From a virus, in the IMG/VR virus record IMGVR_UViG_3300028423_001161, positions 1 through 64,000 of that record: a DNA stretch of 64,000 bases. One strand, written 5' to 3'. Positions 3,033 through 64,000 of the stretch are shown here, in pieces (position 1 is the first letter of the stretch; each line of letters opens with the position of its first letter). The position numbers and the translations under genes are program-made. The notes below the pieces were generated by a model. That model ran no database searches. It had not been told where the DNA came from and saw only the letters and a program-made list of their open reading frames with translations.

Positions 3033-3034
3033 TG

Positions 3035-35360: not shown

Positions 35361-35519
35361 TCATAGATAACACGCACAGCTCTCATTTGTACACAACATC
35401 AACACAAACTACACAGGCCTAACGGCCTTTTCAAACTGCGTTCATTCATTTCGCTTTCGCTTCATTCACTCACTGGTTTGAAAGAGTCTTCCTACTCAAC
35501 AGAGTTAATCATACAATAT

Positions 35520-35885
35520 AAGAGTATTCATGTAGATAGTGAGGTCATACGAAGCCTGTTCCTGGCAACGTATGACTCCGAAACTTCATGTGAGTAGCTT
35601 CGGCCACAACGGAAGGCAGGTGTTTTCAGCACACTCCTCTGGGCTCTGACCTTACCCAACCTGCGTCGATTTTTAATGACACCTCGCTTCAGTGTGCCAA
35701 TGGGAGTTTTGTGCATGAGATTTCAACTGTTAAGACTGTGCAAACGTTTCTATCAGTGGACAGACGTTTTAGCATCCTCTCGGGTAGTGCACAGAATCAG
35801 CTCATAGCAGAAGCCTTGGCCTACCACCTCATTTCAGAGTGGATTCAGCAACGGTATTAGATCCGGCCCGTCAACCTTGTGTGCT
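35520..35885 (-). ncRNA. candidate large structured non-coding RNA (family not identified)
   Basis: Non-coding gap with many nested stems (GTCATACG/CGTATGAC, GCAGGT/ACCTGC, CTGTGCA/TGCACAG, AAACGT/ACGTTT) and GAGA/GAAA-containing loops on the minus strand. Confidence 0.5.
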
Positions 35886-35989
35886 ATGTGTGTGTTGCCT
35901 ATGAAAAATGTCAGTTGTTGTTTAAGTGCCTAGAACTAAGCCATGTGAGATAGTATGATGTGCCCTGTGATATGCCATGCGTGTGATAG

Positions 35990-36415
35990 TTATTTGCCTT
36001 TTAAGCCTTCTCTGAGTATTTTTGAACCACCAACACGTACATTGATGATTCCATTGTAGTAATCGTCCCGGAGCAGTACCTCTCTGTCAAACTGCTCTTT
36101 GGCTTCTAGATAGCTGGCAATGCCTCTGCTAGCGCAAAAATGCAGTATCTCTCTGGTGAACTGTTCTTGGCCCAGCTCTGCAACATCCTCATTGAGCTGA
36201 TCCGAACTGCCCCAGTACTCTCGCCAGTCGCTCTCTTTGGTGCCACGTCTCTTGCGTTTTTTGCCTTTGAGCGGCGGTTTAGTGGTTTTAAACTGTGCCA
36301 GCTTTTTGCCCACATACTTCTTGCCGTTGACCTTGTTTGTGATCAAGTACACAAATGCTTCACAGCCTTCAGGAAGTTCATCTATGGGTTTCCCCTTGTA
36401 TAGCCACTGACTCAT
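35990..36415 (-). CDS. minimal GIY-YIG (SegE-like) nuclease-domain protein
   Basis: FVYLITN...KKYVGKK, YWGSS, FTREIL, YLEAKEQ and YYN; no C-terminal DNA-binding extension. Confidence 0.8.
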   Translation of the reverse strand: MSQWLYKGKPIDELPEGCEAFVYLITNKVNGKKYVGKKLAQFKTTKPPLKGKKRKRRGTKESDWREYWGSSDQLNEDVAELGQEQFTREILHFCASRGIASYLEAKEQFDREVLLRDDYYNGIINVRVGGSKILREGLKGK

Positions 36416-36466
36416 CAAGGCTATTTACGAGATTCACTGATATATCCGGATGTTTCACGAAAGCCA

Positions 36467-38233
36467 TCAGTCTATGTACTCTGTGTCTGTGTTGTATTCT
36501 GTGAAGCCGCCTGTTTTGACCACAGTGAGCACGTTGTTTACTCTGCCCACCAGCTCATCTTTGTGGCTAATCAGCATGATGTTTTTGCCCTGGTCTCTGT
36601 GCATTTTTTTCAACACACTCAACGAATTTTCCACACCCACACTGTCCATGCCTGAGTCAATGAGTTCATCCACACACATTAGGTTCATGGGTCGGTTCAA
36701 GCTCTCATAGATGTCACGAAATGCCCAGCTTATGCTGAGGATCAAACGGTTGCGTTCACCTCTGCTGAGGTTGTCAAAGTCTAGGTCTCTGCCAAATTCT
36801 GTGATTTCCACGCCCAAATCACTGCCAAATTCCACTTCGTGCGGCAAGCCAATGCGCTCTAGATAGTATGCTAGACGCTGGTTGAGATAGGCAATGTTCT
36901 GATCAATGATTTTTCTCCGAATAAACGAATCTTTGCTGGTCAACAGTTTGTACAAAAACTCTTGGTGTTCTCTGAGCTCAGTGAGCTCGTTGATTTTGTC
37001 AAAGCTCACTTCTTGCAGTGCAGTTTCTCTGAGACTGTCAATTTGTTCTGTGTATGGATTTTTTTCGTGTTGTTTCTGTGCGTACTGTTCTGCCAATGTT
37101 TCTAGATTGTGTTTGTGTTCATATGCAGATTCCACACTGTCATAGAATGTGTCTTTGGCATCGGGTACCTCACCCAGTTGTTCCAGTGCTTGATGTATCT
37201 CTGTGTGGCGAGTTTGCAGTTCTTTGTTGTATTTGGTTTCTTCAGATAGTTTGTCCTGCACACTTTTGATATATTGTTCGTGTGTGTGCAAGTGGGCTGT
37301 GCCTTGACCGCAGGCCGGACATACACCTTCGTTGGCCTGTTGCACATTGTGCTCACACTCTTCTAGAGTTTTGTTGCTGCGTTCAATGGTGGTGTTCAAT
37401 TGCTTGAGCTCAGACTCCAGTGTGGATTGTGCATCTTTGAGCTCAGCAGCCTCTTGATTGTGTTTGTGTGCTGAAATCTCAGCATCCACATCCAGTTGAT
37501 CCAGTGTTTTCAGTGTGTTTGCCAGCTCTGCTAGCTTTTCATCGTGCGACCTCTGCCATGCTCGACTGCGACTCTCAATTTCAGTGATGTTCTCTTCGAT
37601 TCTCTTGTTGCTGGCCTCAATGGCATTGATTTCAATTTCTTCTTGCTTGATAAAATCTTTGGTGTTCTTGAGCTGTTCTTTGAGCACTTCTGCTTTGGCA
37701 CTGAGATCAGTGATGCCCAGCAGCTGTTCAATCATGTCACGCTGATCAGCAGCTTTCATGCTCAGGAAAGGCTCGGTGTAGGTGTTCAATGCAATGATGT
37801 GCTTGAACATGTTGTGGGGAAAACCCACAATCTTTTCGATGTGTTTCTGTGTTTCTCTGCTATCGCCTTGGCTTTCGTTGTCGTCTTTTTCAACACCGTT
37901 CACATAGAGTTTGAGCACATTGGGCTTTCTGCCTCGCTCAATGCGATAGTCCACATCGTCAATTTCAAAGTCAACACTCACCATCATGCCCTTGCCGTTG
38001 GTCTTGTTGATGAGATTATCTCGGCGAATATTGGTGAGTGCTTCTCCATAGAGACCATAGCTGAGTGCATTGATAATGGTGGTTTTGCCTGTGCCGTTTC
38101 TGCTGCCTTCGCCGCCCAAGTCAAGATTGTGCCCCAGCACCAATGTGAGCTGACTGTTTTCAAAGTTTACTGCTTGAGTTTGTGCGCCAATGCTCATGAA
38201 GTTGCGTGCACTGACATTCTTGATTTTCAGCAC
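36467..38233 (-). CDS. gp46: recombination endonuclease ATPase subunit (Rad50/SbcC-like)
   Basis: Walker A NGTGKT, CPAC zinc hook, LSRGE signature, VDE Walker B and ISH; GTG start. Confidence 0.95.
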   Translation of the reverse strand: MLKIKNVSARNFMSIGAQTQAVNFENSQLTLVLGHNLDLGGEGSRNGTGKTTIINALSYGLYGEALTNIRRDNLINKTNGKGMMVSVDFEIDDVDYRIERGRKPNVLKLYVNGVEKDDNESQGDSRETQKHIEKIVGFPHNMFKHIIALNTYTEPFLSMKAADQRDMIEQLLGITDLSAKAEVLKEQLKNTKDFIKQEEIEINAIEASNKRIEENITEIESRSRAWQRSHDEKLAELANTLKTLDQLDVDAEISAHKHNQEAAELKDAQSTLESELKQLNTTIERSNKTLEECEHNVQQANEGVCPACGQGTAHLHTHEQYIKSVQDKLSEETKYNKELQTRHTEIHQALEQLGEVPDAKDTFYDSVESAYEHKHNLETLAEQYAQKQHEKNPYTEQIDSLRETALQEVSFDKINELTELREHQEFLYKLLTSKDSFIRRKIIDQNIAYLNQRLAYYLERIGLPHEVEFGSDLGVEITEFGRDLDFDNLSRGERNRLILSISWAFRDIYESLNRPMNLMCVDELIDSGMDSVGVENSLSVLKKMHRDQGKNIMLISHKDELVGRVNNVLTVVKTGGFTEYNTDTEYID

Positions 38234-38234
38234 T

Positions 38235-39251
38235 CTAGGTCTCCAGTTTTTGGTAGATCTCAATCAGCCTGTGTGGTTGCACTGTGTTGCTTTCCACAGT
38301 CTCCAGCTGACTGATCACGATGTGATCCACACTCTCAAAATTGATTTCAGCACCAGATTGATCCTGCTCTTGTTCTTTCACAGGTATCAGCTGAAGCTCT
38401 CTGACTCCGTATTGTTCAGAAAACTTTTCTCTGATAAAGTTGGCTTCTTCATAGGAAATGCCAATGTTTAGTTTAACACGTGCATAGGTATACCGGTCAA
38501 GAAGATTTTGATGATTGTCAATGAGATCACTGAGGTCAAACACCCGATACTTGGGACATTCTGGCCAGTTCACATACTGAGGTTCGCCGTCCCAGTCTAA
38601 GAACATTGCACCTCTGTGGTCATCGTCTACATCAGCATAGTTGTGCGGAAAAGCATTGCCCATGTAGTGAATGTTGTTTTTGTATTGACGTTTGTGAAAA
38701 TGTCCCGAGAACACATACTCTGGTCCATTGAGGTGATCTGCATTGATGCCTCCGTGATCAGGCATTTCTACCAGTGCGTTCATCTTGAAGTGTGGCAACT
38801 CAAAGTGTCCAAACACATATCTTGACTTGGTCTTGACCACCTTGCGCCACTCGTCGCCCACAAGCCACGGCACCAGTGCTACACCGTCCTGTTCGATCAC
38901 TTCGTCCACAAACACAAAGTTTTCCAGGTCTCTGGCAAACTCCACGCTGTTGAGATCTCGCTTGTCTTTGTAGTAGAGATCATGGTTGCCCACAATGAAG
39001 TACACAGTTTCAAATGCTTCATTGAGCTTTTTGAGATTGCGTATGCCTGTGTTCATGGTTGCCACATTTACACTGGCTCTGTGATGATTCCAGTCTCCCA
39101 AGAATATGCAGGTTTCACAGCCACGTGCCTTGCTCTCAGCAATGAACCAGTCCATGAAACGATCGCAATCATCTAGATGCACTTTGCTGTTTTGCTTGAG
39201 ACCCAGATGAATGTCAGTGAAACAGGCAGCTTTTTTGAAAAGTTGACTCAT
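38235..39251 (-). CDS. gp47: recombination endonuclease nuclease subunit (Mre11/SbcD-like)
   Basis: DIH, LGD, GNHD, GHFE and SGHFH metallophosphoesterase motifs. Confidence 0.95.
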   Translation of the reverse strand: MSQLFKKAACFTDIHLGLKQNSKVHLDDCDRFMDWFIAESKARGCETCIFLGDWNHHRASVNVATMNTGIRNLKKLNEAFETVYFIVGNHDLYYKDKRDLNSVEFARDLENFVFVDEVIEQDGVALVPWLVGDEWRKVVKTKSRYVFGHFELPHFKMNALVEMPDHGGINADHLNGPEYVFSGHFHKRQYKNNIHYMGNAFPHNYADVDDDHRGAMFLDWDGEPQYVNWPECPKYRVFDLSDLIDNHQNLLDRYTYARVKLNIGISYEEANFIREKFSEQYGVRELQLIPVKEQEQDQSGAEINFESVDHIVISQLETVESNTVQPHRLIEIYQKLET

Positions 39252-51841: not shown

Positions 51842-54800
51842 ATGGCAGATAAAAAGATCTACAAACGCTTACCGGCAGTACTACAAACAACAGCAATCAA
51901 GAATTTCTTTGAGAGCACAGTAGAACAACTGTTTAGCAAGAGCAATGTTGACAACATTCAAGGTTTTATAGGCTCCCAGCGCAGTGAGGACGCCGGCGCA
52001 TCAGGCACATATCTACCAGAGCCCAGCATAACCAAGAGGTTCTATGGTTTGTCGCCCACTGTGAACACACTGAATCCCGACACTGGTGACAGCGAAAACT
52101 TGATTTACTATGACGAACTTGTTGATATACTCAAGACCTATGGTGTAGATGTTAGAGATCATAACAAAATTTTCTCAGAGAATTATAGCACATTCTTGCC
52201 GCCCATTGACATTGACAAGTTTGTAAACTACTCAGAATACTACTGGGCACCCAAAGGCCCCAGCACCATAGTGGTTCAAGGAACTCTAGAACATCCCGTT
52301 GATGTTGACCGTGATGTGCTAGGACAAACACAGTTCACACCACCGGGTGGCGTGCCATTTCGCAATGGCATGATTGTGGAATTCGGCGGCGATTTTGTTA
52401 TTCCCAACACACGCTTGGGTGTAGAGTACATTGTGGAAGGTGTAGGAGAAAGCATTTTCTTTGTGCCCAAGGCAGACAACTTCAGCACACGTTTCAGCAC
52501 ACCCGGCGAAGATCAGTTTGATCTTGGACTCGAAGACACAGATGACACTGTGGAAACAGTTCACAGTTCTGCAGACTACCTCAGCAATGTAGAGATACTC
52601 AGTGGCGGTGTAGGCTATGTAGAACCCAAGCTGTTTGTGTACGACAACCCTTTGGTCAGTGTCACAGACAACAGCGGAGACAATATCAGTGCGCTCACAC
52701 CATACTGGCAAGATGACCCTGCCAATGTGGATTTACGAACCACAGATCCCAGCACTGGTTTACAGAATGCTAACCTCATAAGCCTTGCGAGCATTGTTGA
52801 CTATGAGACTCAACAGGGCATTCTCACAGAGTATGACACCGTGAAAGCTCTCTATGACAACAGTGAACTACGCACAGGTTCTGTGGCAGAGTTTGATCTT
52901 GGTGTGGATTCAGATCATAGCATCACAGATGTAGATATCACCAACAACAACAGCAGTGATCCCAAGCATCTGTACAGTGGCCAAGTACGCTATGTGCTCT
53001 ATGACAAGCTAGTAGAACATCAAGCAAACCTATCACTCACTGCCGAACAAGCCACCGGCAACAGCACACCACAGGTGTTTGAGACCAGCGAGTTTGTGCT
53101 TGACAGTGTCACAGACATCAAAGTTGGACAACAGATAACAGGTTTATTCAAGGGCATTGTAAAAAACATTACTCCTGCTAGCAGAATCATAGAGCTGGAA
53201 GAACCAGTGCCTGTGACAGTTGGCATGTTTTCTCAGGATAGTACTCTGAGATTTCAGGGTCGTGGTTTTTCAGCAGACCTGAGATTTGACGATGTGCACA
53301 CTGTCACAGAAGGCTCTGTGGTTACCATACTTGAATCTCAGCGTAAACCAGGTGTGAATCCCAACAACTTCAATGACTATTATGTGATCAATGCACTGCC
53401 TGGTTTTGACCAAGACGGTGGGCCGCCGTGGAGCGGCACAGACACGCAGGAAGTGTCAGACTACCTCTTACAACAACGCGGCGCAACCAACCGCAACGTG
53501 TGGAGTCGTGTAAACTTCTGGTATCATCGTCAAAACTTCGTAGATGCAGGCGACGAGTTGCCTCCTGTGAGTCAACGAGCCAAACGTCCTATCATTGAGT
53601 TTGATAGAAACTTGGAACTCTACAATCACGGCACAAACAGTCTAGGCTTTGTGAACACAGCATCCACAGAGCTTACCTTGGATGATATCAACGGTCGTCC
53701 GTCGGGCTTTCTCATCGATGGCGTGCCCACCGAAAATGCCAGCTTTATTTTCCCAGAAGGCAAGGTTGAGGATATTAAGTATGTGTATACCACAACCACA
53801 GTGCAAGATGATGTGGAAATAACGTTCAGCGACCCAGCTAATCCAGATCCCAGCAACATTGAAATTGCTGTTGTGGGCAACGTCACGCTTGGCGGTTTTG
53901 CTGAAAACGGATATGTTGACAGCATTGAGATCATCGACCCTGGTGCCAACTATACCAGCAATGTGGAAGTGGTTATCTCTCACAGTGCAGGACGAGATGC
54001 ACAAGCAACTGCTGTGGTAGATGGCAGCGGCAGTATCACAGAAATACTGCTGTTTGACAGGACTCCTGAATCTGTGAGCTATGACGGTGAGTATGTCAAT
54101 GTGAGATTCAACGGCAGCCACGGCCTCAGCGACGGAGACACAGTAAATGTGATCGGCGCTGATCCCTCTGAGTACAACGGAACGTATCAGATCATTGTGA
54201 CATCCAGCAACGAGTTTTTGTATTTGCCCAAAATTAGGCCTAGTGCCGACACAGCAAGCACATTGCCCACTGTGAAAACAGGCGGTCGCAGCTACTATGA
54301 AACTGGCCTTGTGAGAGTTACACGTCTCCCTGATCCTAATCTAAATCCCGAAGACGCTGTTGATGGCGATGAAAATTTTGTACCCTTGGAAGCACAACCA
54401 GGAGATATTGTGCAGGTCACTGGTGGCAGTGTGGCACTTGGACGTGAGTATGTTTTTGAAAGCACCGAGTGGAGTGTGGCACAGGAAAAAGTCACTGTGA
54501 ACCAAGCGCCGCTGTTTAATCTCTATGACACCTCAGGTCGTTATCTAGGCGACAATGGTGTATATCCCAACAACAACTTTGCAGGTTCTAAGATATTTGG
54601 CTATGCAACCACAGCGCCAGACAGTGATTCTGTGCTGGGCACACAGCCAGACACAGAGCTAGGTTTTCCAGTGGTGTTCAAACAGTTCAAAGCCACCAGT
54701 GAAATTGTGTTTGAAAATTATTTGGATACCAGCAGTTACAGTTATAGGCCACTGGGAGCAGACAGTGATCTTGATGTCACTGGCTACTACTATTACAAAC

Positions 54801-57800
54801 TGTTAACCGAGCCCGTGGGTTATCACAGTGCATGGAAAGTGGTCGATGATCGCAGCACACAGAGAATCTACACTGTTTACAACATCACACAGATCGAAGT
54901 AGATCAACAGCGTGTGAATTATTTTGTAGGCTGTTTGCCTGAGCTTGATAGCTCTGCGCCCAGCGGCTATGACATACGTGTGAGAGTCAACGGAGAAATA
55001 CGCACAGACTACACCTATGGCACCACACAAAGCGGCTACATTGACTTTGAGAGCTTTGATCTGTCAGCTGGCGATCTACTGGAAATCGATGCCTATGGCG
55101 AGGAAGGCCTTTTTGACATCAACACAGCCAGCAAGTATGAATTGCCATTGGGTTGGAGTAGAAATCCCGAAAACCAAGACATATTGTATACTAGCGAACC
55201 AGAATTTCTGGAACATTTTCGCAGATATCTAAGTGATCAACCAGGCTTCCGGGGCGATGTGTTTGCCAACAACAACAGTTCTAGTATCCCGTTGAATCCG
55301 AGGCATGCTACCGAGATTGTAAACACCACACAAGACATCATGCTGGGTGCATTTCTCATTGACGATCAACCTCACAACTTGGTTGATGCACTGAGATTTA
55401 CTGCATTGGAGTACAGCAAATACAAGAACCGGGTGCAAGCAGAAATTGATCGCTACAATCAACTCAACAACATTGACAGTCTTGGTGTTGACGCAGTGCT
55501 AGAGCAGGTGCTGAGAAATGTGATCAGTTTCAAAGTGGGCAACGAAGTTTTCAATAGAACCTATGTGATGCCGTTTGGTGACAACTATGAAGAAGAAACT
55601 TTCACAGTTGCACTAAATCAAACAGACTTTGTGTTGTCTACATCACTGGACTTTAATCAACTGGAAAACACATTGTTGGTGTTTCACAATGGCAACTTGC
55701 TGAGAATTGACAACTGCTATGTGTTGTCAGATCATGCGCCTATTACTATCACAGTTCAAAATGAAGTGGGACTACAGCCCGGCGATACCATCACAGCACG
55801 TATCTACAACAGTGAGCGCGACAGTGCACAGTGCCCGCCAACGCCAAGCACCATGGGATTATTTCCACTGTACATTCCTACTATACTGGTGGATGACAGC
55901 TATCAGACTCCGGTGGAAGTGATACTGGGTCACGACGGCAGTCGCACACCAATCAAAGGTGACAGCAGAGATCACATATTACTGGAATATGAGAAACGCA
56001 TCTACAATGCTGCCAAGAAAGAATTCCGAGAAGCCAACAGTTTGCCAGAGTACAATCTAGCAAATGTGCGTGCAGGGGCATTCCGAGACACTGGATATGC
56101 ATACACAGAGTTCTATGATCTAATGCGCAACAGCTTTTCGCGTTGGACTGTGGATAACACAGTGGATGCAGTGACCAACGAATACTTTGACTTAGACAAC
56201 GAATTCACCTGGAATTATGGTACACAGGCTCTTCCAGGACACTGGCGTGGTATCTATGAATACTACTACGACACTGTGAGACCTCACACACATCCCTGGG
56301 AGATGCTGGGCTTCACAGAAGAGCCACTGTGGTGGGACACAGAGTATACCAGACAAGAAATCAATCAGCGAGATGAGGTGATTTCAATCTTGTCCTATGG
56401 CCCCGACAACACACGTCTGTGGCAGGATCTGGAACAGGGCATTATTCGGCAGGGTCCCAGAGAAAACTTCTCCGACGGTAGATATTTACTTGATAATCCA
56501 TATCGCAGGGTTGGCCTTAGTGAAATTATTCCTGTGGACAACAATGGCGAGTTGATATCTCCTTTCCGTTTGTTCAGCACAGGCACCACGCAGATATTAG
56601 AGCAGTGGCAAAATTCTGTGACTGGCAACAACGATCCTGACTATGCGTTCCGCACCAGCAGTTTTCAGCAAGTAAACAGCTTGAATGTGAGCTATGACAC
56701 ATCAGGCGGTATCAGCGGCAACGGCAATGTGTATGTGAGTACCACAGAAAACTCTGTGAGTATTCCGCGCAAAGACCTCAATGTGCTTGTTCGAGACGAA
56801 TCGCCTATGCCCGATGACAAAATTGTTGCTGTGTTGGTAAATGGTGAACCAGTGTACGGCATCAAGTCGCCAGACAGCTGGAACAACCAAGATGTGTGGC
56901 ACTACAATCTAGGCTACGATTACACCCTGCAAGACCAACTGAGGGTGATCACACCTCAGGTGTTAGGCATCAGCAACTGGGACAGTGAATCACACTCCCC
57001 CGTGGTGGGCTGGGCATCTGATGGCTTGCCTATCTACGGTCCATATGGCTATGAAGATCCCAGTGATAGCAACAGCAGCATTGTTGCTATTCGCTCGCCT
57101 TGGGTGTTACGTGAAGCCAACAACAGGCAGATCAACCCCGGCGGTGCACACACTGGTGTTTTCATTGAAGATTACAAATATGATGCCACACTAAGCGGAC
57201 AACCAGGTTATACAGGAAAACACAATCAGAGATACGGCGTAACACCTGACAGCCCCACACAGCCAATCTACTACTATGTGCTCACTGTGGATGAAAATCT
57301 AGAACCTGCATTTCCCTATCATGTGGGCGGTGGCACCACAAATGTAGACCAATGGGCAAACAACTATTTCAGCACAGCACCTCTCAGAGGACGTATCTCA
57401 GATGTGCTAGTGCAAGAGCAAGGTGCTCTCTATGATCCTGCAAACACCACTATTGCAATCACCGACAGCAATGGCAATGACACAGCAACAGCAAATGCTG
57501 TGATAGAGGATGGACACATTGTTGATGTGGTTGTCACAGATGCAGGCAGTGGTTACAGCGAAGCACAGGCCACAGTGGTTGATTCATCGGGATCGGGTGT
57601 GCGTGCCAAGCTGGATGTGGTGGTTAGCACCAGCGATAACAGCACAGGCAACAGTTTTGTAAACACAGATGCCACAGCCAGCATAGTCAGTGTGCTAGAT
57701 ACACAATTGGTCAGAGACGGCAATGAAATCAGCAACAACTGGAAGTTTGGCGATGTTGCACCTGCAGAGTATGCTTGGCGCAGCACTGAACAATATCCAT

Positions 57801-60800
57801 TTGCTGTAGCAGAAGCACTGTTGCTGGCCAAGCCGGGCAGGTTTGCTAGAATATTCAGCGAGCCCAGCAAACTGCATAGACCAGACATCGACCGACGCAT
57901 GCTGTTAAATCGAGACACCAACAAACGCTGGCAGTTCCTGGATCCTGCTCAGTTTTCTGTGCATGGCGACATTGACAACAACGGTAATTTTGTCACCAAT
58001 GTGGGCTACACACAGTTTATCAACAGTTGGCTCAAGTTCCAGGGTCTTGACACAGATGTGGATTTTGTGCCCAAACTGAGAACACTCAACATGAAACTGT
58101 CTCATCGCATGAGTGGTTACATCGACAAAGACACACTCACTGTGAGAACAGATCAGTACAGCAATGATGGTAATGCCACCAGCTTGATTGTGCCGCAGAA
58201 AAACATATCAGTGGCAGTTCACAGCTCGCCTAATAAAACGCGCAACTTCTACAGTGGTGTGCAGATAGAAAAAACTCTAGGCGGTTATCGTCTACGGGGC
58301 TATGACAGAAATCAAGGCTATTTCAGCATCTTGGAAAGCGACCAAACTGGTCCCAGGCAGAGAGTCACTGTCGGCGGTGAGCCTGCCAGCTATGTGCCAT
58401 GGGAGCCAAATCAAACCTATCGCAAAGATGCCATTGTTGAACGCCTAGGCAATTTTTATCAGGCCAAACTCACAGTGAGCTCAGGCACAGAGTTTGACAA
58501 GTCACTGTGGACACGTTTGCCTAGTCTGCCACAAATTGGTGGTGCAACCAGCACGCTCTATCAGAGAACCACAGGCCGCACACTGAGAGTAAACTACGAA
58601 ACTGAATTTGACAGCATAGATCAAGTCTATGATTTCTTGATTAGCTTGGGTAGATATCAACAGAGAAGCGGCTATGACTTTGGCGACTACGATGAAGCAA
58701 TTGCTGATGTCAGAGACTGGAGTTATGCTGCCAAGCAATTTTTGTTCTGGACCACAGGACAATGGGAAGTTGGCAACACTCTTGAACTATCTCCCTTGGC
58801 TCCGCGCGTTGCATTTTCAGTGCCCACAGGATTTATTTCCAAGATCAATAGGAGCGACAGAGAACAGTTCTCCGTTGTGAATGCTGCAGGGGCAGTGATT
58901 GATCCTCAGCAATGTGAAATTGTTCGACAAGATAATCGCATAGAGATTGCACCGCCAGCAGGTGATCAGATCTACGGTGTGCTGTTATACACCAAAGAAA
59001 TCGAACATGCAATGACCTTAGACAATCTCACTGAGTTTGCTGATGTGATCTACAATCCGGTGATCAATCAGAAACACTCGCGTCTCAAGGTCACAGGCAC
59101 CCGAACCCGTAATTGGACAGGCAAATTGCTGTCTGAGGGTTTTGTGATTGACGAAGATGAACTCAAACCCAACTTGGACAATCTTGCAGAGAGCCTTGGC
59201 AGATATCATGAGCTAGGTTTTATTCCTGTTGAAAAGCAGGTCTACGAACAGGCACGTGCACTGTTTGGCTACACAGACAGGGAGTACCTCAGAGAGCTTG
59301 ACATCATAGATGATCAGCAGTTTGACTTCTACAAAGGCATGATACAGAGCAAAGGCACCGACAGCAGTCTCACTCGCATTGGTCGCAGCAAAACTGTAGC
59401 AGAAGGCAACATCTCTGTGTACAGTGAATGGGCACTGAGGGTTGCTGATTTCGGTGATACTGAGAGCGATCAAAGCCTCGAACTTCAAGTAAACAAATCA
59501 GACATTGTGCAGAATCCACAGTTGATCACACTGGCACTGCCCGAAGACATCACCAACAGTGTAGAGCGTATAGATGTGCTAGAAGCAAAATTTGTCTACA
59601 CCAGCACACCCGAAATTGAGTTGCCGGCTCCGGCTGATCCAACTGGCACACAAGCTCTTGCCGCTGCCACACTAGACTCCACTGGCAAATTGAGTTCAAT
59701 CACTGTAACTGAAGCAGGCAGTGGTTATGGTGCTAGCATTGGTGCAGACGTGATCGCTGCCAACGTGCTGGTGGACAGTGAAAGCACACGTTTTGTGGAA
59801 GTTGCAGCTACACCGCTTGCCAACAACATCATTGACTTTGATCAACCGGAAATTGTGTTTTCTGTGACAGACAACATCAGTGGCGCAAACATTGACGCTG
59901 TAGTACCTGCCAACGGCAATGTGGTAATTGAGGATGTGCTCAGTGAAATCAACAGCAATGCACTAGTCAACAGTCATCTCACAATGCGTGCTTTTTCAAA
60001 TCTCAACAACGGCAACGTGGTATACAATGTGAGACTAAGCGGCTCAGACTTTACAGTAACAGACGGCGCTAACATAGGTGTCGCCAATGGCAGCTATCAG
60101 CCCGTGCAGAAATACGCCATAGACACCGCAACCAACAGCGAACCTGAGATTGATATCAACGATGTTACTGTGCTTGTCGACGGACAAGTGGTACCCAGTG
60201 CTCAAGGCAATGTTACAAACTGGACATTCTCGGCTTCTAACACAATCACAGTTACCAGTGATAGCGTTTATCCAGAGAATGCAAATGCCAATAGTTCGGC
60301 TTCATTTGCATTGGGAACAACTGTTACCAACATCGAAACTGACAGCAACGGCCGCTATAGGTATCTAGAACTTTACATCAACGGTGTGCGTGTTACAAAT
60401 ATTCGCAACGGATTGGGCGTAGATGCCAACACTGGCTTGCCGCTGTACAGTGGCACTGTGTATGAAATTGTGGGCGGCAACACACTGCGTTTTCCAGACA
60501 TCAATCTCATACCCAAACAAGCATTAGCAGAGCTCTATGATCCACCGTTGGAGCAGGCCATAGAATACAATGAACAGCGTGAACTCTACTATGGTTTTAA
60601 CAGCGACACAGAGTTCCGCTTGGTGGAAAAGGCCACTGTGGAGTTTGACAACAGCTATCAAGGCGACCTGCCGGGCAAGACATTGAATATCCGTGTAACC
60701 AGCAAAGACCGTATTGCTGTGCGCACACAAACAGTGAGAAGTTTCGAAATAACACCAGATGCACAAGATGATGATGTGTTGTTCATTGACATCGACAATG

Positions 60801-63800
60801 CAGACAAGTTTTTGAAACGTCCCAGCGATGTTGCAGACAAAGGCCTCTGGCCAACCATGTCGGCAGTTGATGCCAGTGGGGTCACAGATTCGCGTTATCC
60901 CACAATACGCAATTCTGGCTATGTCAATGCAAGCAATGTGAATTTTCAAGCCTATGACATAGGCAGTTTGCCTGATCTCTTCAGCGACGATGTGATTATC
61001 AAGCCTGACAGCGGAGACCTAATTCACATTGCGGTCAGCGAAAATCGAGACTGGAATGTGTATCGCATGTCACAGGTAAACACCAATGAGAGTTTCTTGT
61101 TCCGCAACGAAGACGGTGATGTTAGCCTATACACAGATGTAAGCCTGTTTAACTTCTTGGACGGTAATCAAATTGGCGAAGATAACACAGGCAGGTTCTT
61201 GGATTATGTGCTCACATTGAAAAATGCCAACATCAGTGATACTGTGGTTGTGTGGCGCAATGAGGATATTGTGCAGGCACAACAGTACGATCTCAGAGAG
61301 TTTGAGGCGCCCAGAATGGTTGAAGCACGTATCGCCAGCATTGGACCTGCAGATCTCACAGAAATCACAGATCTCCAGCCCGCAACGTCACGCACACTGC
61401 AGAATCTTACACTAACACCGTTGGACAACACCAGCAACACAGTGTTGGTAACATCACCAGACTTAGGTGATCTCAGAGAAGGCGATGCTGTGCAGTTGAT
61501 TGACAATGTGGGAATTTCCTATGTGTCAGAAGCCAAACACACAGTGGACACAGGCAACAACACAATCACAATGAGTGCACAAACTGTGGAATCTATTAGT
61601 GTTGACAGCAACGGCGACGGCTATGATTTTGTGCCCAATGTAACTGTTGACACAGGCACTGCAGAAGGCAACACACAGGCAGTTGCAGTTGTAGCAGGCT
61701 CCATCGACAGTGTTGATATCTCAGGTACCTCAGATCACAGTGAAGCTGACGCTTATCTCACGGGCCCGGGCAACAATGCCGATATTCAAGTAGACATTGT
61801 TGACGGCAGTGTCACTGCAATCAACATCATAGACCCGGGTTCAGAGTACAACACAAGTGCTCTGCCCTCTGTGTCCATTGAATCGCCTGCAAACGGTGTT
61901 ACTGCTAATGCAGAGGTTACTTCTGATGACATTGATGATACCACAGGCAGCTTGCTGAGAATCAGAGTAACAGACCCGGGTTCTGGATACACAGCAAGTC
62001 AAAGACCCAATGTAACCATCGATCCGTCGCCCACAGGCAACGACGCCACAGCATCAGCTGTGATCACAGGCAACATTGCTGTTGATGTCATAGACGGCGG
62101 CAACGGTTATGTGGTTGGAGACAGCAATATTGAAGTCGTTGGCAATGGCACTTATGCTGATGCCTCATTGAATATCACAGGAAGTGTGAATCAAGTGCTA
62201 GTGCAAAACACTGCAGTGGGTTACACCGGTGTGCCTGATGTGACCATTGAAGCACCTCTCAGTGGCAACACAGCCACAGCAACCGCAGTGATGAACACTG
62301 GCGTTGACCGTATACAAGAAGCTGCAAACATCAGCTCAGACGGCAATGTGTATGTGTCACTGACAGGCAATGTGAGTTTTGTAACAGCAGGCAACAGCAA
62401 TGCCGATCTTACGCAACGTGATCTAGACAATGTGCGTCAGGCAAGACTGATACTGGCTAACAGCTATTTGGTTGAAAACCTTGATGCCAACACGGGCACA
62501 TTTGAGCTTGCGGACACTGTGTTCTCAGATACTCAACCTTTGGGCGAGTTTGTGCTGTCTGCAAATGCCACAACCTCAGATAACAGCATTGTAATACAAG
62601 GTACTCCGGGTCTAGTTGACGGAGACGTGGTATTTTACAACAGCAACGTGCTGGGTAATATCTCCGGTGTCACAGTAACCAATACCACCACCACTATCAA
62701 CATGGACAGCAATCTCACTGCCAATGTGTCTGCTGGCGAACAAGTGTCAATTGTAGGCGACAGTGTGTGGCAAGAAGGAGTCATTGACGTCACAGGATAC
62801 ACTGTGAAGATACGCAGACAGTTCGAGCCCTTGGCCAGCAATGCTACCTATCACACAGTGAACAATCTCACATTAAACAGCTTTACCATTGAAAGTGCAA
62901 ATGTCACTGACTCAGTGAATGCAATTGGCGTGCATCTCAATCAGTCAGAAATCACAGTGAACAATCACAATCAACAGGTTGGCGATTTTGTGAGGCTGGA
63001 TACCAACACAGTGTCTGGTCGCTATCAGATTCAGCGAATTCAAGGCAACACCATGGTGATAGATGCACCGTTCCGCAGTGGTTTCACTGAAGGAAACATC
63101 ATTGGCAGAGGGGTAGAGATCAAAACCACAAACCCACACACCATTACATCTGTGTATGCTGCCAACAACAAGCGTGTGGCAGTGCACTTTGCTGAACCAT
63201 TGTATTACAACAAGGTTTATCCTATCAGTCGTGTCACACCAGACAGTTTGATTGTGGACGGGTTTTGGCCTCAAGACGACACAGAGCATGTGTTCTATGA
63301 AGAACGCTATGGCACAGTGAACAGTGCAGAACCTTTGTTTGTGCCAGGCGATGCTAACTCAGCAGTGAGTGCCAACGCACTGTCGGCCACTAATGTCATA
63401 GAACTCAGCCGCAACAGCAGACTCAATGACATGGTTGCACACTATAGCAGTAACAGTGCAGTGATCAGCAGCAAGCATGTAACTGTGTTTGATCTATTCA
63501 CGGATTCCGCAGGCACGCCACTGAGTGCAGTTCAACTAGTAGACGAACAGTCAGCAGGCAATACAGTGAACTATGTAAACACTGTGGCGGTTGTTGACCC
63601 TGAGGCACTGCCTGACAACAATGTCAGTGTAGAAGTAATGGTCACACGCCAAATACTGAGGTCAGACAATAGATATCCTGTGTTAACCACATTGGACCAC
63701 AATCGCATGTTTGTGAATGGTTCTGCTATTGAGATTGACAGCTATAATAATCCTGAAGCTCTAACTGCCAGTATCAACAGAAACATTGGGCTGAGAAGAG

Positions 63801-64000
63801 CAATGACCAAAGAACGGGCAACAGGCTTTGGCATGAACTTTTTGATGCTGAATGATCCTAACACTCCTGTGTTGGAGAACAGATCAGCATCTGAGATTGA
63901 CGGCTATGGTCCATATCTCAGAGATGAAAACCTCATTTCAAGACTCAGCGGTGGCGCTACAAACACCACCGAAGAGCTAGAACTCACGGTTCCTGGAGAA
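51842..64000 (+). CDS. giant baseplate/structural protein (>4,050 aa, incomplete; gp7-like position) containing a YHYH-like domain
   Basis: ATG at 51842 (MADKKIYKRLP...). The same frame reads as protein at spot checks (57002, 63962) and the track lists no terminated ORF in it. Motifs: DKFVNYSEYYW, HSPVVGWASDGLPIYGPYGY, repeated I...GSGY. Confidence 0.85.
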   Translation, partial: MADKKIYKRLPAVLQTTAIKNFFESTVEQLFSKSNVDNIQGFIGSQRSEDAGASGTYLPEPSITKRFYGLSPTVNTLNPDTGDSENLIYYDELVDILKTYGVDVRDHNKIFSENYSTFLPPIDIDKFVNYSEYYWAPKGPSTIVVQGTLEHPVDVDRDVLGQTQFTPPGGVPFRNGMIVEFGGDFVIPNTRLGVEYIVEGVGESIFFVPKADNFSTRFSTPGEDQFDLGLEDTDDTVETVHSSADYLSNVEILSGGVGYVEPKLFVYDNPLVSVTDNSGDNISALTPYWQDDPANVDLRTTDPSTGLQNANLISLASIVDYETQQGILTEYDTVKALYDNSELRTGSVAEFDLGVDSDHSITDVDITNNNSSDPKHLYSGQVRYVLYDKLVEHQANLSLTAEQATGNSTPQVFETSEFVLDSVTDIKVGQQITGLFKGIVKNITPASRIIELEEPVPVTVGMFSQDSTLRFQGRGFSADLRFDDVHTVTEGSVVTILESQRKPGVNPNNFNDYYVINALPGFDQDGGPPWSGTDTQEVSDYLLQQRGATNRNVWSRVNFWYHRQNFVDAGDELPPVSQRAKRPIIEFDRNLELYNHGTNSLGFVNTASTELTLDDINGRPSGFLIDGVPTENASFIFPEGKVEDIKYVYTTTTVQDDVEITFSDPANPDPSNIEIAVVGNVTLGGFAENGYVDSIEIIDPGANYTSNVEVVISHSAGRDAQATAVVDGSGSITEILLFDRTPESVSYDGEYVNVRFNGSHGLSDGDTVNVIGADPSEYNGTYQIIVTSSNEFLYLPKIRPSADTASTLPTVKTGGRSYYETGLVRVTRLPDPNLNPEDAVDGDENFVPLEAQPGDIVQVTGGSVALGREYVFESTEWSVAQEKVTVNQAPLFNLYDTSGRYLGDNGVYPNNNFAGSKIFGYATTAPDSDSVLGTQPDTELGFPVVFKQFKATSEIVFENYLDTSSYSYRPLGADSDLDVTGYYYYKLLTEPVGYHSAWKVVDDRSTQRIYTVYNITQIEVDQQRVNYFVGCLPELDSSAPSGYDIRVRVNGEIRTDYTYGTTQSGYIDFESFDLSAGDLLEIDAYGEEGLFDINTASKYELPLGWSRNPENQDILYTSEPEFLEHFRRYLSDQPGFRGDVFANNNSSSIPLNPRHATEIVNTTQDIMLGAFLIDDQPHNLVDALRFTALEYSKYKNRVQAEIDRYNQLNNIDSLGVDAVLEQVLRNVISFKVGNEVFNRTYVMPFGDNYEEETFTVALNQTDFVLSTSLDFNQLENTLLVFHNGNLLRIDNCYVLSDHAPITITVQNEVGLQPGDTITARIYNSERDSAQCPPTPSTMGLFPLYIPTILVDDSYQTPVEVILGHDGSRTPIKGDSRDHILLEYEKRIYNAAKKEFREANSLPEYNLANVRAGAFRDTGYAYTEFYDLMRNSFSRWTVDNTVDAVTNEYFDLDNEFTWNYGTQALPGHWRGIYEYYYDTVRPHTHPWEMLGFTEEPLWWDTEYTRQEINQRDEVISILSYGPDNTRLWQDLEQGIIRQGPRENFSDGRYLLDNPYRRVGLSEIIPVDNNGELISPFRLFSTGTTQILEQWQNSVTGNNDPDYAFRTSSFQQVNSLNVSYDTSGGISGNGNVYVSTTENSVSIPRKDLNVLVRDESPMPDDKIVAVLVNGEPVYGIKSPDSWNNQDVWHYNLGYDYTLQDQLRVITPQVLGISNWDSESHSPVVGWASDGLPIYGPYGYEDPSDSNSSIVAIRSPWVLREANNRQINPGGAHTGVFIEDYKYDATLSGQPGYTGKHNQRYGVTPDSPTQPIYYYVLTVDENLEPAFPYHVGGGTTNVDQWANNYFSTAPLRGRISDVLVQEQGALYDPANTTIAITDSNGNDTATANAVIEDGHIVDVVVTDAGSGYSEAQATVVDSSGSGVRAKLDVVVSTSDNSTGNSFVNTDATASIVSVLDTQLVRDGNEISNNWKFGDVAPAEYAWRSTEQYPFAVAEALLLAKPGRFARIFSEPSKLHRPDIDRRMLLNRDTNKRWQFLDPAQFSVHGDIDNNGNFVTNVGYTQFINSWLKFQGLDTDVDFVPKLRTLNMKLSHRMSGYIDKDTLTVRTDQYSNDGNATSLIVPQKNISVAVHSSPNKTRNFYSGVQIEKTLGGYRLRGYDRNQGYFSILESDQTGPRQRVTVGGEPASYVPWEPNQTYRKDAIVERLGNFYQAKLTVSSGTEFDKSLWTRLPSLPQIGGATSTLYQRTTGRTLRVNYETEFDSIDQVYDFLISLGRYQQRSGYDFGDYDEAIADVRDWSYAAKQFLFWTTGQWEVGNTLELSPLAPRVAFSVPTGFISKINRSDREQFSVVNAAGAVIDPQQCEIVRQDNRIEIAPPAGDQIYGVLLYTKEIEHAMTLDNLTEFADVIYNPVINQKHSRLKVTGTRTRNWTGKLLSEGFVIDEDELKPNLDNLAESLGRYHELGFIPVEKQVYEQARALFGYTDREYLRELDIIDDQQFDFYKGMIQSKGTDSSLTRIGRSKTVAEGNISVYSEWALRVADFGDTESDQSLELQVNKSDIVQNPQLITLALPEDITNSVERIDVLEAKFVYTSTPEIELPAPADPTGTQALAAATLDSTGKLSSITVTEAGSGYGASIGADVIAANVLVDSESTRFVEVAATPLANNIIDFDQPEIVFSVTDNISGANIDAVVPANGNVVIEDVLSEINSNALVNSHLTMRAFSNLNNGNVVYNVRLSGSDFTVTDGANIGVANGSYQPVQKYAIDTATNSEPEIDINDVTVLVDGQVVPSAQGNVTNWTFSASNTITVTSDSVYPENANANSSASFALGTTVTNIETDSNGRYRYLELYINGVRVTNIRNGLGVDANTGLPLYSGTVYEIVGGNTLRFPDINLIPKQALAELYDPPLEQAIEYNEQRELYYGFNSDTEFRLVEKATVEFDNSYQGDLPGKTLNIRVTSKDRIAVRTQTVRSFEITPDAQDDDVLFIDIDNADKFLKRPSDVADKGLWPTMSAVDASGVTDSRYPTIRNSGYVNASNVNFQAYDIGSLPDLFSDDVIIKPDSGDLIHIAVSENRDWNVYRMSQVNTNESFLFRNEDGDVSLYTDVSLFNFLDGNQIGEDNTGRFLDYVLTLKNANISDTVVVWRNEDIVQAQQYDLREFEAPRMVEARIASIGPADLTEITDLQPATSRTLQNLTLTPLDNTSNTVLVTSPDLGDLREGDAVQLIDNVGISYVSEAKHTVDTGNNTITMSAQTVESISVDSNGDGYDFVPNVTVDTGTAEGNTQAVAVVAGSIDSVDISGTSDHSEADAYLTGPGNNADIQVDIVDGSVTAINIIDPGSEYNTSALPSVSIESPANGVTANAEVTSDDIDDTTGSLLRIRVTDPGSGYTASQRPNVTIDPSPTGNDATASAVITGNIAVDVIDGGNGYVVGDSNIEVVGNGTYADASLNITGSVNQVLVQNTAVGYTGVPDVTIEAPLSGNTATATAVMNTGVDRIQEAANISSDGNVYVSLTGNVSFVTAGNSNADLTQRDLDNVRQARLILANSYLVENLDANTGTFELADTVFSDTQPLGEFVLSANATTSDNSIVIQGTPGLVDGDVVFYNSNVLGNISGVTVTNTTTTINMDSNLTANVSAGEQVSIVGDSVWQEGVIDVTGYTVKIRRQFEPLASNATYHTVNNLTLNSFTIESANVTDSVNAIGVHLNQSEITVNNHNQQVGDFVRLDTNTVSGRYQIQRIQGNTMVIDAPFRSGFTEGNIIGRGVEIKTTNPHTITSVYAANNKRVAVHFAEPLYYNKVYPISRVTPDSLIVDGFWPQDDTEHVFYEERYGTVNSAEPLFVPGDANSAVSANALSATNVIELSRNSRLNDMVAHYSSNSAVISSKHVTVFDLFTDSAGTPLSAVQLVDEQSAGNTVNYVNTVAVVDPEALPDNNVSVEVMVTRQILRSDNRYPVLTTLDHNRMFVNGSAIEIDSYNNPEALTASINRNIGLRRAMTKERATGFGMNFLMLNDPNTPVLENRSASEIDGYGPYLRDENLISRLSGGATNTTEELELTVPGE

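What the first reader, a model, noticed from the sequence alone, without database searches (positions are those of the whole stretch)
35520..36429. Minimal GIY-YIG nuclease gene followed by a ~370-nt highly structured non-coding element: possible nuclease-RNA system
Seen: in a very gene-dense genome, ~630 bp (35361-35989) has no convincing ORF. On the minus strand, directly downstream of the 141-aa GIY-YIG gene, it folds into nested helices: GTCATACG/CGTATGAC (35544-35576, extendable by CATG pairs), GCAGGT/ACCTGC enclosing TGGG/CCCA (35617-35664), CTGTGCA/TGCACAG enclosing AAACGT/ACGTTT and a CC-GAGA-GG tetraloop (35736-35794), and CCACTC-TGAAAT-GAGGTGG (~35824-35842). GNRA-type loops read correctly on the minus strand, the same strand as the nuclease gene, and I saw no terminator between them. 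Known: homing GIY-YIG enzymes such as I-TevI need C-terminal DNA-binding modules. This protein has none but carries a very basic insert (KPPLKGKKRKRRGTK) suited to nucleic-acid binding. Inference: the RNA is co-transcribed and may be a scaffold or guide for the nuclease, a standalone large phage ncRNA, or an R-loop-forming origin transcript.
Basis: partly seen in the sequence, partly recalled or inferred. Interest (0 to 1): 0.8.

Follow-up and report, generated by a model that had tools for sequence, protein, structure and literature searches.

The report
Large twin-box phage RNA beside nuclease
The gene-free stretch behind a small DNA-cutting enzyme gene of this uncultured marine T4-like phage encodes a real, intricately folded RNA of about 460 bases that is common in related phages. 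Its job is unknown, and the enzyme looks like a regular but replaceable neighbour, not a proven partner.

Summary
Window 35415-35876 (minus strand) encodes a ~460-nt multi-domain structured RNA directly behind a 142-aa SegE-type GIY-YIG gene (35990-36418).

Thermodynamics alone is unremarkable (z -0.84). The support is comparative:
- Hundreds of IMG/VR contigs carry the element.
- Predicted pairs are 93-97% canonical and 33-43 show compensatory changes, above every shuffle and slide control.
- G-U cells far outnumber A-C cells, which puts the fold on the nuclease's strand.

Linkage is tight. 176 of 177 RNAs of the window's two types have the GIY gene upstream on the same strand. All 59 gp46-clade loci carry the pair, 17 of them inverted as a block.

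The guide or scaffold reading is not favoured:
- In two related contigs (L411, L412) a PD-(D/E)XK nuclease replaces the GIY gene; in L411 it sits in front of a homologous RNA.
- GIY homologues at other loci lack the RNA.
- No target was found.

The oddest feature is two 7-nt words (ACAUGAA here) that are always identical to each other, change fast between phages and have no complementary partner in cis.

The 5' domain resembles Rfam's orphan Polynucleobacter-1 motif (RF01718). Relatives match it strongly; this window does not. Earlier agents of this scan found the same family on other genomes.

The parts
35990..36418 (-). 142-aa stand-alone GIY-YIG nuclease gene (SegE-type catalytic domain only)
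   Evidence: Pfam PF19835, E 2.9e-35, covering the whole profile. 192 unique homologues of 140-153 aa keep the GIY, YIG, Arg, Glu and Asn motifs and the basic hairpin invariant. AlphaFold2 pLDDT 89.6. The best meaningful fold match is the I-TevI catalytic domain, 1LN0/1MK0; it is weak (Foldseek E about 0.3, below the tool's cut-off; prob 0.82-0.85; TM 0.63-0.65 normalised by target length).
35877..35989 (-). Variable A/C-rich leader between the nuclease stop and the conserved RNA, with GGCA-type repeats and a loose third copy of the twin word (TCTCACATGG, 35941-35950)
   Evidence: Poorly conserved in alignments. Absent in many type A loci, where the RNA profile match starts 4 nt after the stop codon. 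No convincing sigma-70 promoter in it. Extra copies of the word in the leader are no more frequent than in controls.
35415..35876 (-). Whole conserved structured RNA, about 460 nt ('twin-box' RNA, type A core with a type-B-like 3' module)
   Evidence: nhmmer matches downstream of the nuclease gene in 162 of 185 unique loci. Covariation statistics. No Rfam match.
35736..35876 (-). 5' domain: P1 (35849-35872), P2 hairpin (35824-35842) and the P3 three-part domain (35736-35794). In architecture it resembles the Polynucleobacter-1 motif.
   Evidence: Coordinates. Compensatory changes against L011/L013 in P2 and in both P3 stems were read by eye from the alignment. The P3 layout (outer stem, ACUA, CC-loop-GG, second hairpin) mirrors positions 80-138 of the RF01718 consensus printed.
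35616..35664 (-). Conserved core: GCAGGU/ACCUGC stem enclosing a GGG/CCC hairpin with a near-invariant loop (UAAGGUCAGAG) and a second small hairpin
   Evidence: A 21-nt core pattern retrieved more than 118 IMG/VR loci. The GC-to-AU exchange in the outer stem is seen. The loop's GGUCA can pair with UGACC after the central hairpin as a candidate pseudoknot; this is inferred and has no covariation support.
35584..35595 (-). Twin box X1 (ACUC + ACAUGAA + G), shown in a hairpin loop in the window's minimum-energy fold
   Evidence: Its variable positions have their highest mutual information with the same positions of X2.
35544..35576 (-). Central hairpin between the twin boxes (K-turn-like flanks in most type A relatives)
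   Evidence: Stem pairs show 32-36 double changes across 96 sequences. Present in all RNA types.
35526..35537 (-). Twin box X2 (AUCU + ACAUGAA + U)
   Evidence: Its 7-nt word is identical to that of X1 in 95 of 96 representative loci and changes in step with it.
35429..35483 (-). 3' module: 8-bp stem UUUCAAAC/GUUUGAAA closing a G/A-rich hairpin capped by GCGAAAGC
   Evidence: The outer stem covaries strongly, read by eye from the alignment (for example UUGCAAAC/GUUGGCAA and UAUCUUGU/ACAAGAUA). It overlaps the separate first-reader note e1-6035272.
35416..35427 (-). Terminal hairpin GGCC-GUUA-GGCC, the 3' end of the element
   Evidence: Covaries (GACAC-GAA-GUGUC, GGUCC-GUA-GGACC, GAUAC-GAA-GUAUC). 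Scored as terminator-like in the window, but most relatives have no U-tract after it.
36467..38263 (-). Context: gp46 (Rad50-like recombination nuclease subunit), whose operon the nuclease-RNA pair ends
   Evidence: Pfam AAA_23/SMC_N. All 59 related gp46 loci with room downstream carry the GIY gene plus the RNA.

Best explanation
Window 35415-35876 (minus strand) is a gene for an autonomous, large, multi-domain non-coding RNA. It belongs to a widespread, essentially undescribed family of T4-like phages.

The RNA is made as the tail of the transcript that carries the small nuclease gene, at the end of the gp47-gp46 operon. This is inferred from the shared strand, the lack of a terminator and the lack of its own promoter in most loci. 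One branch does have its own consensus sigma-70 promoter.

It folds into four parts: a 5' domain related in architecture to the Polynucleobacter-1 motif; a conserved core; a central hairpin flanked by two identical 7-nt words (ACAUGAA here); and a G/A-rich 3' hairpin module.

The nuclease gene upstream is a habitual but replaceable neighbour. It is either an accessory or homing-type nuclease that sits at this conserved locus, or the driver that spreads the block. The RNA does not depend on that particular protein.

Most likely mode of action (inferred, not shown): the RNA works in trans. It presents the two identical, fast-evolving words in unpaired contexts on either side of the central hairpin, and so engages two identical sites of a partner. 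That partner could be a repeated or palindromic nucleic acid, or a dimeric protein. The rest of the fold would be the scaffold.
For: Real RNA on this strand:
- Covariation above all controls, with a large G-U excess.
- Frame-breaking indels in relatives.
- No Rfam or tRNA match that would explain it otherwise.

Family size: more than 585 relatives of the nuclease gene and more than 118 core-motif loci in IMG/VR.

Locus fixture:
- 59 of 59 gp46-clade loci carry the pair.
- A more distant gp46 clade still carries a GIY gene after gp46 in 55 of 59 loci. Most of these have a gap of about 200-650 nt before the next listed ORF of 60 aa or more.

Replaceable nuclease: L411 and L412 have a PF24608 PD-(D/E)XK gene in place of the GIY gene. 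In L411 it stands in front of an RNA 71.5% identical to the one behind a GIY gene in L415.

GIY genes at other loci lack the RNA.

Own promoter in one branch: TTGACA, a 16-nt spacer, then TATAAT, starting 8 nt after the nuclease stop in L059.

Twin words:
- Identical in 95 of 96 representative loci.
- Each variable position has its top mutual information with its twin, in both RNA types.
- They differ in 10 of 29 locus pairs whose nuclease proteins are at least 93% identical.
- The same ACUC-word ... AUCU-word layout recurs with unrelated words (GGAUAAU, GAAUAAU, GGUGAAG) in distant branches.
Against: - In the window's own RNA types the RNA is almost never found without the GIY gene: 176 of 177.
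- It is always downstream on the same strand, even when the block is inverted. That fits a functional pair as well as it fits descent from one insertion.
- The nuclease is under strong purifying selection and no empty sites were seen. This is unusual for a merely selfish neighbour.
- No transcript data were available, so expression and RNA ends are inferred.
- No partner of the twin words was found, so the proposed mode of action is a guess constrained only by the pattern of variation.
Confidence: 0.5

Rival explanations
1. Nuclease-RNA ribonucleoprotein. The RNA binds the domain-minimal nuclease, perhaps through its basic beta-hairpin. It scaffolds the enzyme or directs it to nucleic acid that matches the twin words.
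For: - Tight two-way linkage and co-inversion.
- The nuclease has no separate DNA-binding domain and carries a conserved basic beta-hairpin.
- The twin words are short, unpaired, lineage-specific and change faster than the protein, as guides do.
- When the GIY gene is replaced, the replacement is again a nuclease of about 141 aa.
Against: - The same RNA type follows two unrelated nuclease folds.
- GIY homologues at other loci lack the RNA.
- No match to the twin-box sequence other than the box itself, on either strand, within 64 kb of the phage, and no consistent copy within 2.5 kb in relatives.
- Seven nucleotides is very short for a guide.
- The words are internal, not at an RNA end next to a target.
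Confidence: 0.15
2. Cis-acting or antitoxin-like control element. The structured 3' region regulates the stability, translation or activity of a potentially dangerous nuclease, for example by sequestering it. This would loosely resemble type III toxin-antitoxin RNAs.
For: - Constant position in the 3' part of the nuclease transcript, with no terminator between.
- The RNA is never seen without a nuclease gene upstream, whatever its fold.
- Two identical short sites could be processing or binding sites.
Against: - About 460 nt of ornate, multi-domain structure is far more than known 3' control elements need.
- One branch has its own strong promoter.
- An inhibitor fitted to one fold should not serve an unrelated fold.
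- GIY homologues elsewhere do without it.
Confidence: 0.12
3. DNA-level element. The stretch would be a replication origin, an R-loop primer region, or a single-stranded DNA structure recognised by the nuclease, as the hairpin repeats cut by Ssn-type GIY-YIG enzymes are. The twin words would be protein-binding sites or cleavage sites.
For: - Ssn enzymes are small GIY-YIG nucleases that cut sequence-specific single-stranded DNA hairpins and do not act on RNA (PMC11893778).
- Direct repeats that co-vary resemble iterons.
- The location beside recombination genes.
Against: - More than 80 covarying pairs over several hundred nucleotides, many G-U pairs, GNRA-type loops and tandem G-A motifs are typical of RNA.
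- The block works in either orientation relative to the genome.
- Only one copy is present in the 80.7-kb contig, whereas the Ssn targets of Neisseria are repeats present in hundreds of copies (PMC11893778).
Confidence: 0.08
4. Decayed coding sequence: the remnant of a lost C-terminal DNA-binding domain of a Seg-type homing endonuclease, or small unannotated genes.
For: T4 SegE, at about 205 aa (from memory, not checked here), is longer than this 142-aa protein. A 62-aa ORF lies at 35528-35716.
Against: - The 140-153-aa length is conserved in 192 homologues.
- The gap shows indels that break any frame, and covariation in stems.
- No Pfam match for the 62-aa ORF.
Confidence: 0.02

Closest known systems
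Polynucleobacter-1 RNA motif (Rfam RF01718; Weinberg et al. 2010, PMC2864571)
   Same: In relatives of this element that lie behind a GIY-YIG gene after gp46 and carry twin words (L427, L435), the first ~140 nt match RF01718 at 115 and 91 bits against a cut-off of 37. The window's P3 domain (35736-35794) has the same layout as positions 80-138 of that model: outer stem, ACUA, CC-loop-GG hairpin, second hairpin. Function is unknown in both.
   Different: The window gives no match to RF01718 even at E 10. RF01718 models only ~141 nt and was reported from Burkholderiales and fresh water or estuary samples. The element here is ~460 nt, with a core, twin boxes and a 3' module that the model does not contain. 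It lies in marine T4-like phage contigs.
GOLLD and ROOL RNAs (large ornate RNAs often carried by phages and prophages; Rfam)
   Same: Works like them in kind: a several-hundred-nucleotide, multi-domain, probably pseudoknotted non-coding RNA of unknown function carried by phages.
   Different: No sequence or structure match to any Rfam family. It sits in T4-like lytic phages at a fixed locus behind a nuclease gene, and it has the twin-word feature.
OMEGA guide RNAs (TnpB/IscB omega-RNA, HEARO)
   Same: A structured RNA encoded next to a small nuclease gene on the same strand, with a short, variable, lineage-specific segment.
   Different: - The protein here is a bare GIY-YIG catalytic domain, not a RuvC or HNH effector with an RNA-binding scaffold.
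- The variable words are internal, duplicated and only 7 nt long.
- No target was found next to the element.
- The nuclease can be replaced by an unrelated fold without change of the RNA.
Free-standing GIY-YIG endonucleases of T4-like phages (Seg family; T4 EndoII as a domain-only example)
   Same: The protein matches the SegE-type GIY-YIG domain over its full length. Homologues occur in several genomic contexts, as mobile nuclease genes do.
   Different: It has no C-terminal DNA-binding domain. It was present in every related locus examined and intact in all 192 unique homologues aligned, instead of patchy. No homing site or empty site was found.

Membership tests
Rfam RF01718 Polynucleobacter-1 | Covariance-model score at or above the gathering cut-off (37 bits) | tested here: not met
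   No match in the window at E up to 10. Relatives L427 and L435 score 115 and 91 bits.
Rfam RF01718 Polynucleobacter-1 | Architecture of the 3' half: outer stem enclosing ACUA, a CC-loop-GG hairpin and a second hairpin | tested here: inconclusive
   The window's P3 domain (35736-35794) shows this layout when compared by eye with the consensus printed. No formal alignment score was obtained.
Twin-box phage RNA (working name; not a published family) | Two identical 7-nt words in ACUC-word and AUCU-word contexts flanking a covarying hairpin, followed by a G/A-rich 3' hairpin | tested here: met
   X1 at 35584-35595, hairpin at 35544-35576, X2 at 35526-35537, 3' module at 35429-35483. The same layout is present in 95 of 96 representative loci and in distant branches.
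SegE-type GIY-YIG nuclease domain (Pfam PF19835) | Full-length profile match with conserved GIY, YIG, Arg, Glu and Asn motifs | tested here: met
   E 2.9e-35 over profile positions 1-123 of 123. Invariant columns Y24, Y35, G37, R58, E105 and N122. Weak fold match to the I-TevI catalytic domain.
Seg/Tev-type homing endonuclease (two-domain architecture) | C-terminal DNA-binding domain joined to the catalytic domain by a linker | tested here: not met
   The protein ends 17 residues after the catalytic domain. All 192 homologues are 140-153 aa long.
Seg/Tev-type homing endonuclease (behaviour) | Patchy presence among close relatives, with recognisable empty target sites | tested here: not met
   59 of 59 related gp46 loci carry the gene and no empty site was seen. 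Homologues do occur at other loci.
RNA-guided nuclease systems (OMEGA or CRISPR type) | A variable guide segment complementary to a target, and an RNA specific to its effector protein | tested here: not met
   No complement of the twin words in cis or within 64 kb. The same RNA type follows GIY-YIG or PD-(D/E)XK genes.
GOLLD / ROOL / other catalogued large RNAs | Match to the Rfam covariance model | tested here: not met
   No match in the window or in five representative loci.
Type III toxin-antitoxin (ToxIN-like) | Tandem repeats of a complete antitoxin RNA unit upstream of an endoribonuclease toxin gene | tested here: not met
   The RNA lies downstream, only two 12-nt boxes are repeated, and the protein is a GIY-YIG DNA-nuclease fold.
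Ssn-type single-stranded-DNA nucleases and their hairpin repeats (PMC11893778) | Many genomic copies of a short hairpin repeat cut by the enzyme in single-stranded DNA | tested here: not met
   A single copy of the element in the 80.7-kb contig. Enzyme activity is not testable here.

The most novel reading that the evidence does not exclude
The two identical 7-nt words are address labels that let the RNA direct a catalytic-domain-only nuclease of either fold, encoded just upstream, to matching nucleic acid of competing phages or of the host. That would be a new kind of RNA-programmed nuclease with interchangeable cutting modules. A variant of the idea: the RNA marks the phage's own DNA as self.
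Probability: 0.1. Interest if true: 0.95.

Novelty: new variant of a known kind. Interest (0 to 1): 0.62.

Why it matters
Large, intricately folded non-coding RNAs are rare. Each one found so far (ribosomal RNAs, RNase P, group I and II introns, OLE, GOLLD, ROOL) has turned out to do something unusual.

This family is abundant in uncultured marine and freshwater T4-like phages. In every related locus sampled it keeps the same spot, beside the recombination-nuclease genes. It carries a feature I found no precedent for: two short words kept identical to each other while they change quickly between lineages.

It also shows that a 2010 orphan Rfam motif, Polynucleobacter-1, is probably only the front end of a phage RNA about three times longer.

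If the words turn out to be a recognition code, the family would give a new example of nucleic-acid-based specificity in phage biology. If not, it is still a good target for structural work.

Tried and rejected
- **Rfam.** Gathering and permissive thresholds on the window, on sub-stretches and on five relatives gave nothing, apart from a chance snoRNA hit at E 5.2.
- **tRNA/tmRNA scan.** None.
- **Folding energy against shuffles.** Not significant.
- **Coding reading.** Rejected because of indels and the lack of any Pfam match.
- **Cultured phage genomes.** Only the nuclease gene matches (Melnitz, Stenotrophomonas and cyanophages). The RNA does not, with three different queries.
- **Promoter between nuclease and RNA.** None is convincing in the window or in most loci. 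Only one branch has a consensus promoter.
- **Partner of the twin words.** Four approaches found nothing consistent: reverse complement with G-U allowed within 1.2-2.5 kb; direct and reverse copies within 2.5 kb; copies in the leader against controls; and mutual information against every alignment column in both RNA types. A 14-nt reverse complement with up to 3 mismatches found only itself in the 64-kb window.
- **Small ORFs starting at the AUG inside X1.** Rejected, because linker lengths vary out of frame between relatives (read by eye from the alignment).
- **Whole-anticodon-loop pairing and C/D-box readings of the words.** Considered by eye and dropped, because several word variants do not fit.
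- **RNAalifold on the mixed 96-sequence alignment.** It returned only 8 pairs, because the set was too heterogeneous. Type-specific alignments were used instead.
- **Sequence search of solved structures with the protein and with its profile.** Nothing relevant.
Full report
**What is there**

The window comes from an 80.7-kb IMG/VR contig of an uncultured T4-like phage; CheckV estimates it at 22% complete.

On the minus strand, gp47 (38235-39251) and gp46 (36467-38263) are followed by a 142-aa ORF (35990-36418). After that comes 629 nt without a credible ORF. The convergent genes for a 47-aa protein and a T4-type baseplate protein then arrive on the plus strand.

The 142-aa protein matches Pfam's SegE-type GIY-YIG domain over the whole profile, E 2.9e-35.

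**Checking the observation**

No terminator-like site lies between the nuclease stop and the element. The only such site, 35415-35428, is the element's own terminal hairpin.

Folding energy does not set the stretch apart from shuffled sequence: z -0.84 on the minus strand and +0.41 on the plus strand. Sequence alone would therefore not carry the claim. Related sequences do.

**Comparative evidence**

A search of IMG/VR with the nuclease protein found more than 585 relatives. The best 80 are 70-83% identical and all about 140-150 aa long.

A profile built from the gap finds a conserved element of roughly 400 nt, usually starting within about 180 nt of the stop codon (in a few loci 300-750 nt downstream) and always on the same strand. 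It is present in 162 of 185 unique loci.

Two main sequence types occur:
- Type A includes the window. Its core contains GGUUGGGWAAGGUCAGAGCC.
- Type B has a different core sequence.
- Further divergent types (C to E) also exist.

MAFFT alignments that were not fitted to any structure gave these RNAalifold consensus results:

| Alignment | Sequences | Pairs | Canonical | Pairs with compensatory change | G-U cells vs A-C cells |
|---|---|---|---|---|---|
| Type A (includes the window) | 65 | 86 | 93.3% | 43 | 617 vs 96 |
| Type B | 40 | 84 | 97.2% | 33 | 413 vs 26 |

Controls fall well below these values:
- Sliding the 3' partners by 1-3 columns in type A drops pairing to 33-41%.
- 300 within-column shuffles never reach the observed values. 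The maxima are 85.7% canonical and 32 compensatory pairs for type A, and 89.8% and 22 for type B.

The G-U excess places the fold on the nuclease-sense strand. Indels that are not multiples of three rule out a coding reading.

The helices of the window's own 5' domain are backed mostly by one closer relative, L011/L013. It shows compensatory changes in P2 and in both stems of P3; I read these by eye from the alignment.

**Anatomy in the window**

| Part | Coordinates |
|---|---|
| 5' domain | 35736-35876 |
| Conserved core | 35616-35664 |
| Twin box X1 | 35584-35595 |
| Central hairpin | 35544-35576 |
| Twin box X2 | 35526-35537 |
| 3' module (8-bp covarying stem closing a G/A-rich hairpin capped by GCGAAAGC) | 35429-35483 |
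| Terminal hairpin | 35416-35427 |

Two other first-reader notes on this window describe parts of the same RNA or its leader. One is the G/A hairpin at 35415-35486. The other is the GGCA repeats at 35882-35987.

**The twin boxes**

The strangest feature is that X1 (ACUC + ACAUGAA) and X2 (AUCU + ACAUGAA) carry the same 7-nt word.
- The word differs between loci: ACGUGAA, GCAUGAA, ACAUAAU, ACAUGAU and AGAUAAU in type A, and several others in type B.
- Both copies change together. They are identical in 95 of 96 representative loci.
- In both RNA types, each variable position of one box has its highest mutual information with the same position of the other box. No third column co-varies in a complementary way.
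- No consistent direct or reverse-complement copy lies within 2.5 kb.
- The leader holds no more copies than controls do.
- The 64-kb window holds no other near-match on either strand.
- The word changes fast. It differs in 10 of 29 locus pairs whose nuclease proteins are at least 93% identical.
- Distant branches keep the same layout with unrelated words: GGAUAAU, GAAUAAU, GGUGAAG.

In the window's minimum-energy fold, X1 sits in a hairpin loop. No explanation tested here accounts for this pattern. It suggests recognition of two identical sites of some partner.

**Relation to the nuclease**

Within types A and B the linkage is nearly absolute in the RNA-to-nuclease direction:
- 109 of 110 loci found by a core-motif scan have the GIY gene upstream on the same strand.
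- 67 of 67 type B loci found by an independent pattern do too.

All 59 loci that encode a gp46 66-72% identical to the window's, and that have room downstream, carry the pair. In 42 it directly follows gp46. In 17 the nuclease-RNA block is inverted and lies on the other side of the same convergent junction. No empty site was seen.

The protein is under strong purifying selection, including its basic beta-hairpin. That hairpin is a feature of the whole family, not an insert.

Several results speak against a specific nuclease-RNA partnership:
- GIY homologues of 72-79% identity at other loci, and the 73%-identical gene of the cultured Melnitz phages, have genes directly downstream and no RNA.
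- Earlier notes of this scan said the nuclease is a swappable neighbour, so I searched a more distant gp46 clade. In L411 and L412 a 141-aa PD-(D/E)XK nuclease (PF24608, E 3.4e-11) replaces the GIY gene.
- In L411 the gap behind that gene is 71.5% identical over 358 nt to the RNA behind a GIY gene in L415. The two gp46 genes are 74% identical.
- The RNA is thus about as conserved as the neighbouring core gene, while the nuclease between them belongs to a different fold.
- One branch (L032, L059) has a consensus sigma-70 promoter that starts 8 nt after the nuclease stop. This shows the RNA can be its own transcription unit.

**Comparison with known families**

No Rfam family matches the window or five representative relatives.

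It matches the first ~140 nt of the RNA in L427 and L435 at 115 and 91 bits, against a cut-off of 37. In both loci this stretch starts about 20 nt after the stop codon of a GIY gene that lies after gp46, separated from it by two small ORFs, and both RNAs carry twin boxes.

The window's P3 domain has the same layout as the 3' half of that model. So the window's RNA is best seen as a divergent marine relative of a family whose 5' domain was catalogued in 2010 as an orphan motif (PMC2864571). The other ~300 nt, the twin boxes and the phage context are not in the model.

I found no paper on this in three literature searches. The Ssn family of small GIY-YIG single-stranded-DNA nucleases (PMC11893778) is the nearest published case of a small GIY-YIG enzyme tied to a structured nucleic-acid element. 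It acts on multi-copy DNA hairpins, not on RNA.

**Verdict**

The 'standalone large phage ncRNA' alternative fits best; the guide or scaffold idea is possible but not favoured.

My working odds are:

| Reading | Odds |
|---|---|
| Autonomous trans-acting RNA with a habitual nuclease neighbour | about 0.5 |
| Ribonucleoprotein or guide | 0.15 |
| Control element for the nuclease | 0.12 |
| DNA-level element | 0.08 |
| Other | the remainder |

The scan has met this family before on other genomes. My linkage, covariation and twin-box results were obtained independently before I read those notes. The nuclease swap and the RF01718 link were leads from them that I checked here.

Noticed in passing
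L411:6007-6432 and L412 (IMG/VR contigs related through gp46): A 141-aa PD-(D/E)XK nuclease (PF24608) stands exactly where the GIY-YIG gene stands in sister phages, in front of the same RNA type. A nuclease of one fold has been replaced by a nuclease of another fold and similar size.
   Followed up: partly
L059:4433-4470 approx. and L032 (8 nt after the GIY stop): A consensus sigma-70 promoter (TTGACA, 16-nt spacer, TATAAT) followed by a leader of repeated ACACUUAAAC-like units. Those units are complementary to that branch's twin word (AAGUGUG). This is the only branch in which a cis complement of the word was seen.
   Followed up: partly
GenBank cyanophage and Stenotrophomonas phage records hit: Homologues of this GIY-YIG protein are widely annotated as 'NAD synthetase'. 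This looks like a propagated misannotation.
   Followed up: no
window 51842-64000 (+): An open frame of more than 4,053 codons runs off the window end. Together with the CheckV estimate of 22% completeness for 80.7 kb, this suggests a jumbo phage.
   Followed up: no
L458:5770-7269 and L470: In a few related phages a 499-aa radical SAM protein follows gp46 instead of a nuclease-RNA pair.
   Followed up: no
L119:1524-1544 (-), upstream ORFs 2163-2660 and 2629-3147: This is the single type A RNA without a GIY gene upstream. It is preceded by two ORFs (165 and 172 aa) with no Pfam match.
   Followed up: partly
window 35480-35542 (-): A weak match to a plant C/D-box snoRNA model (snoR64a, 14.9 bits, E 5.2) covers X2 and the sequence after it. 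I take it as chance, though the region does have C/D- and K-turn-like letters.
   Followed up: no
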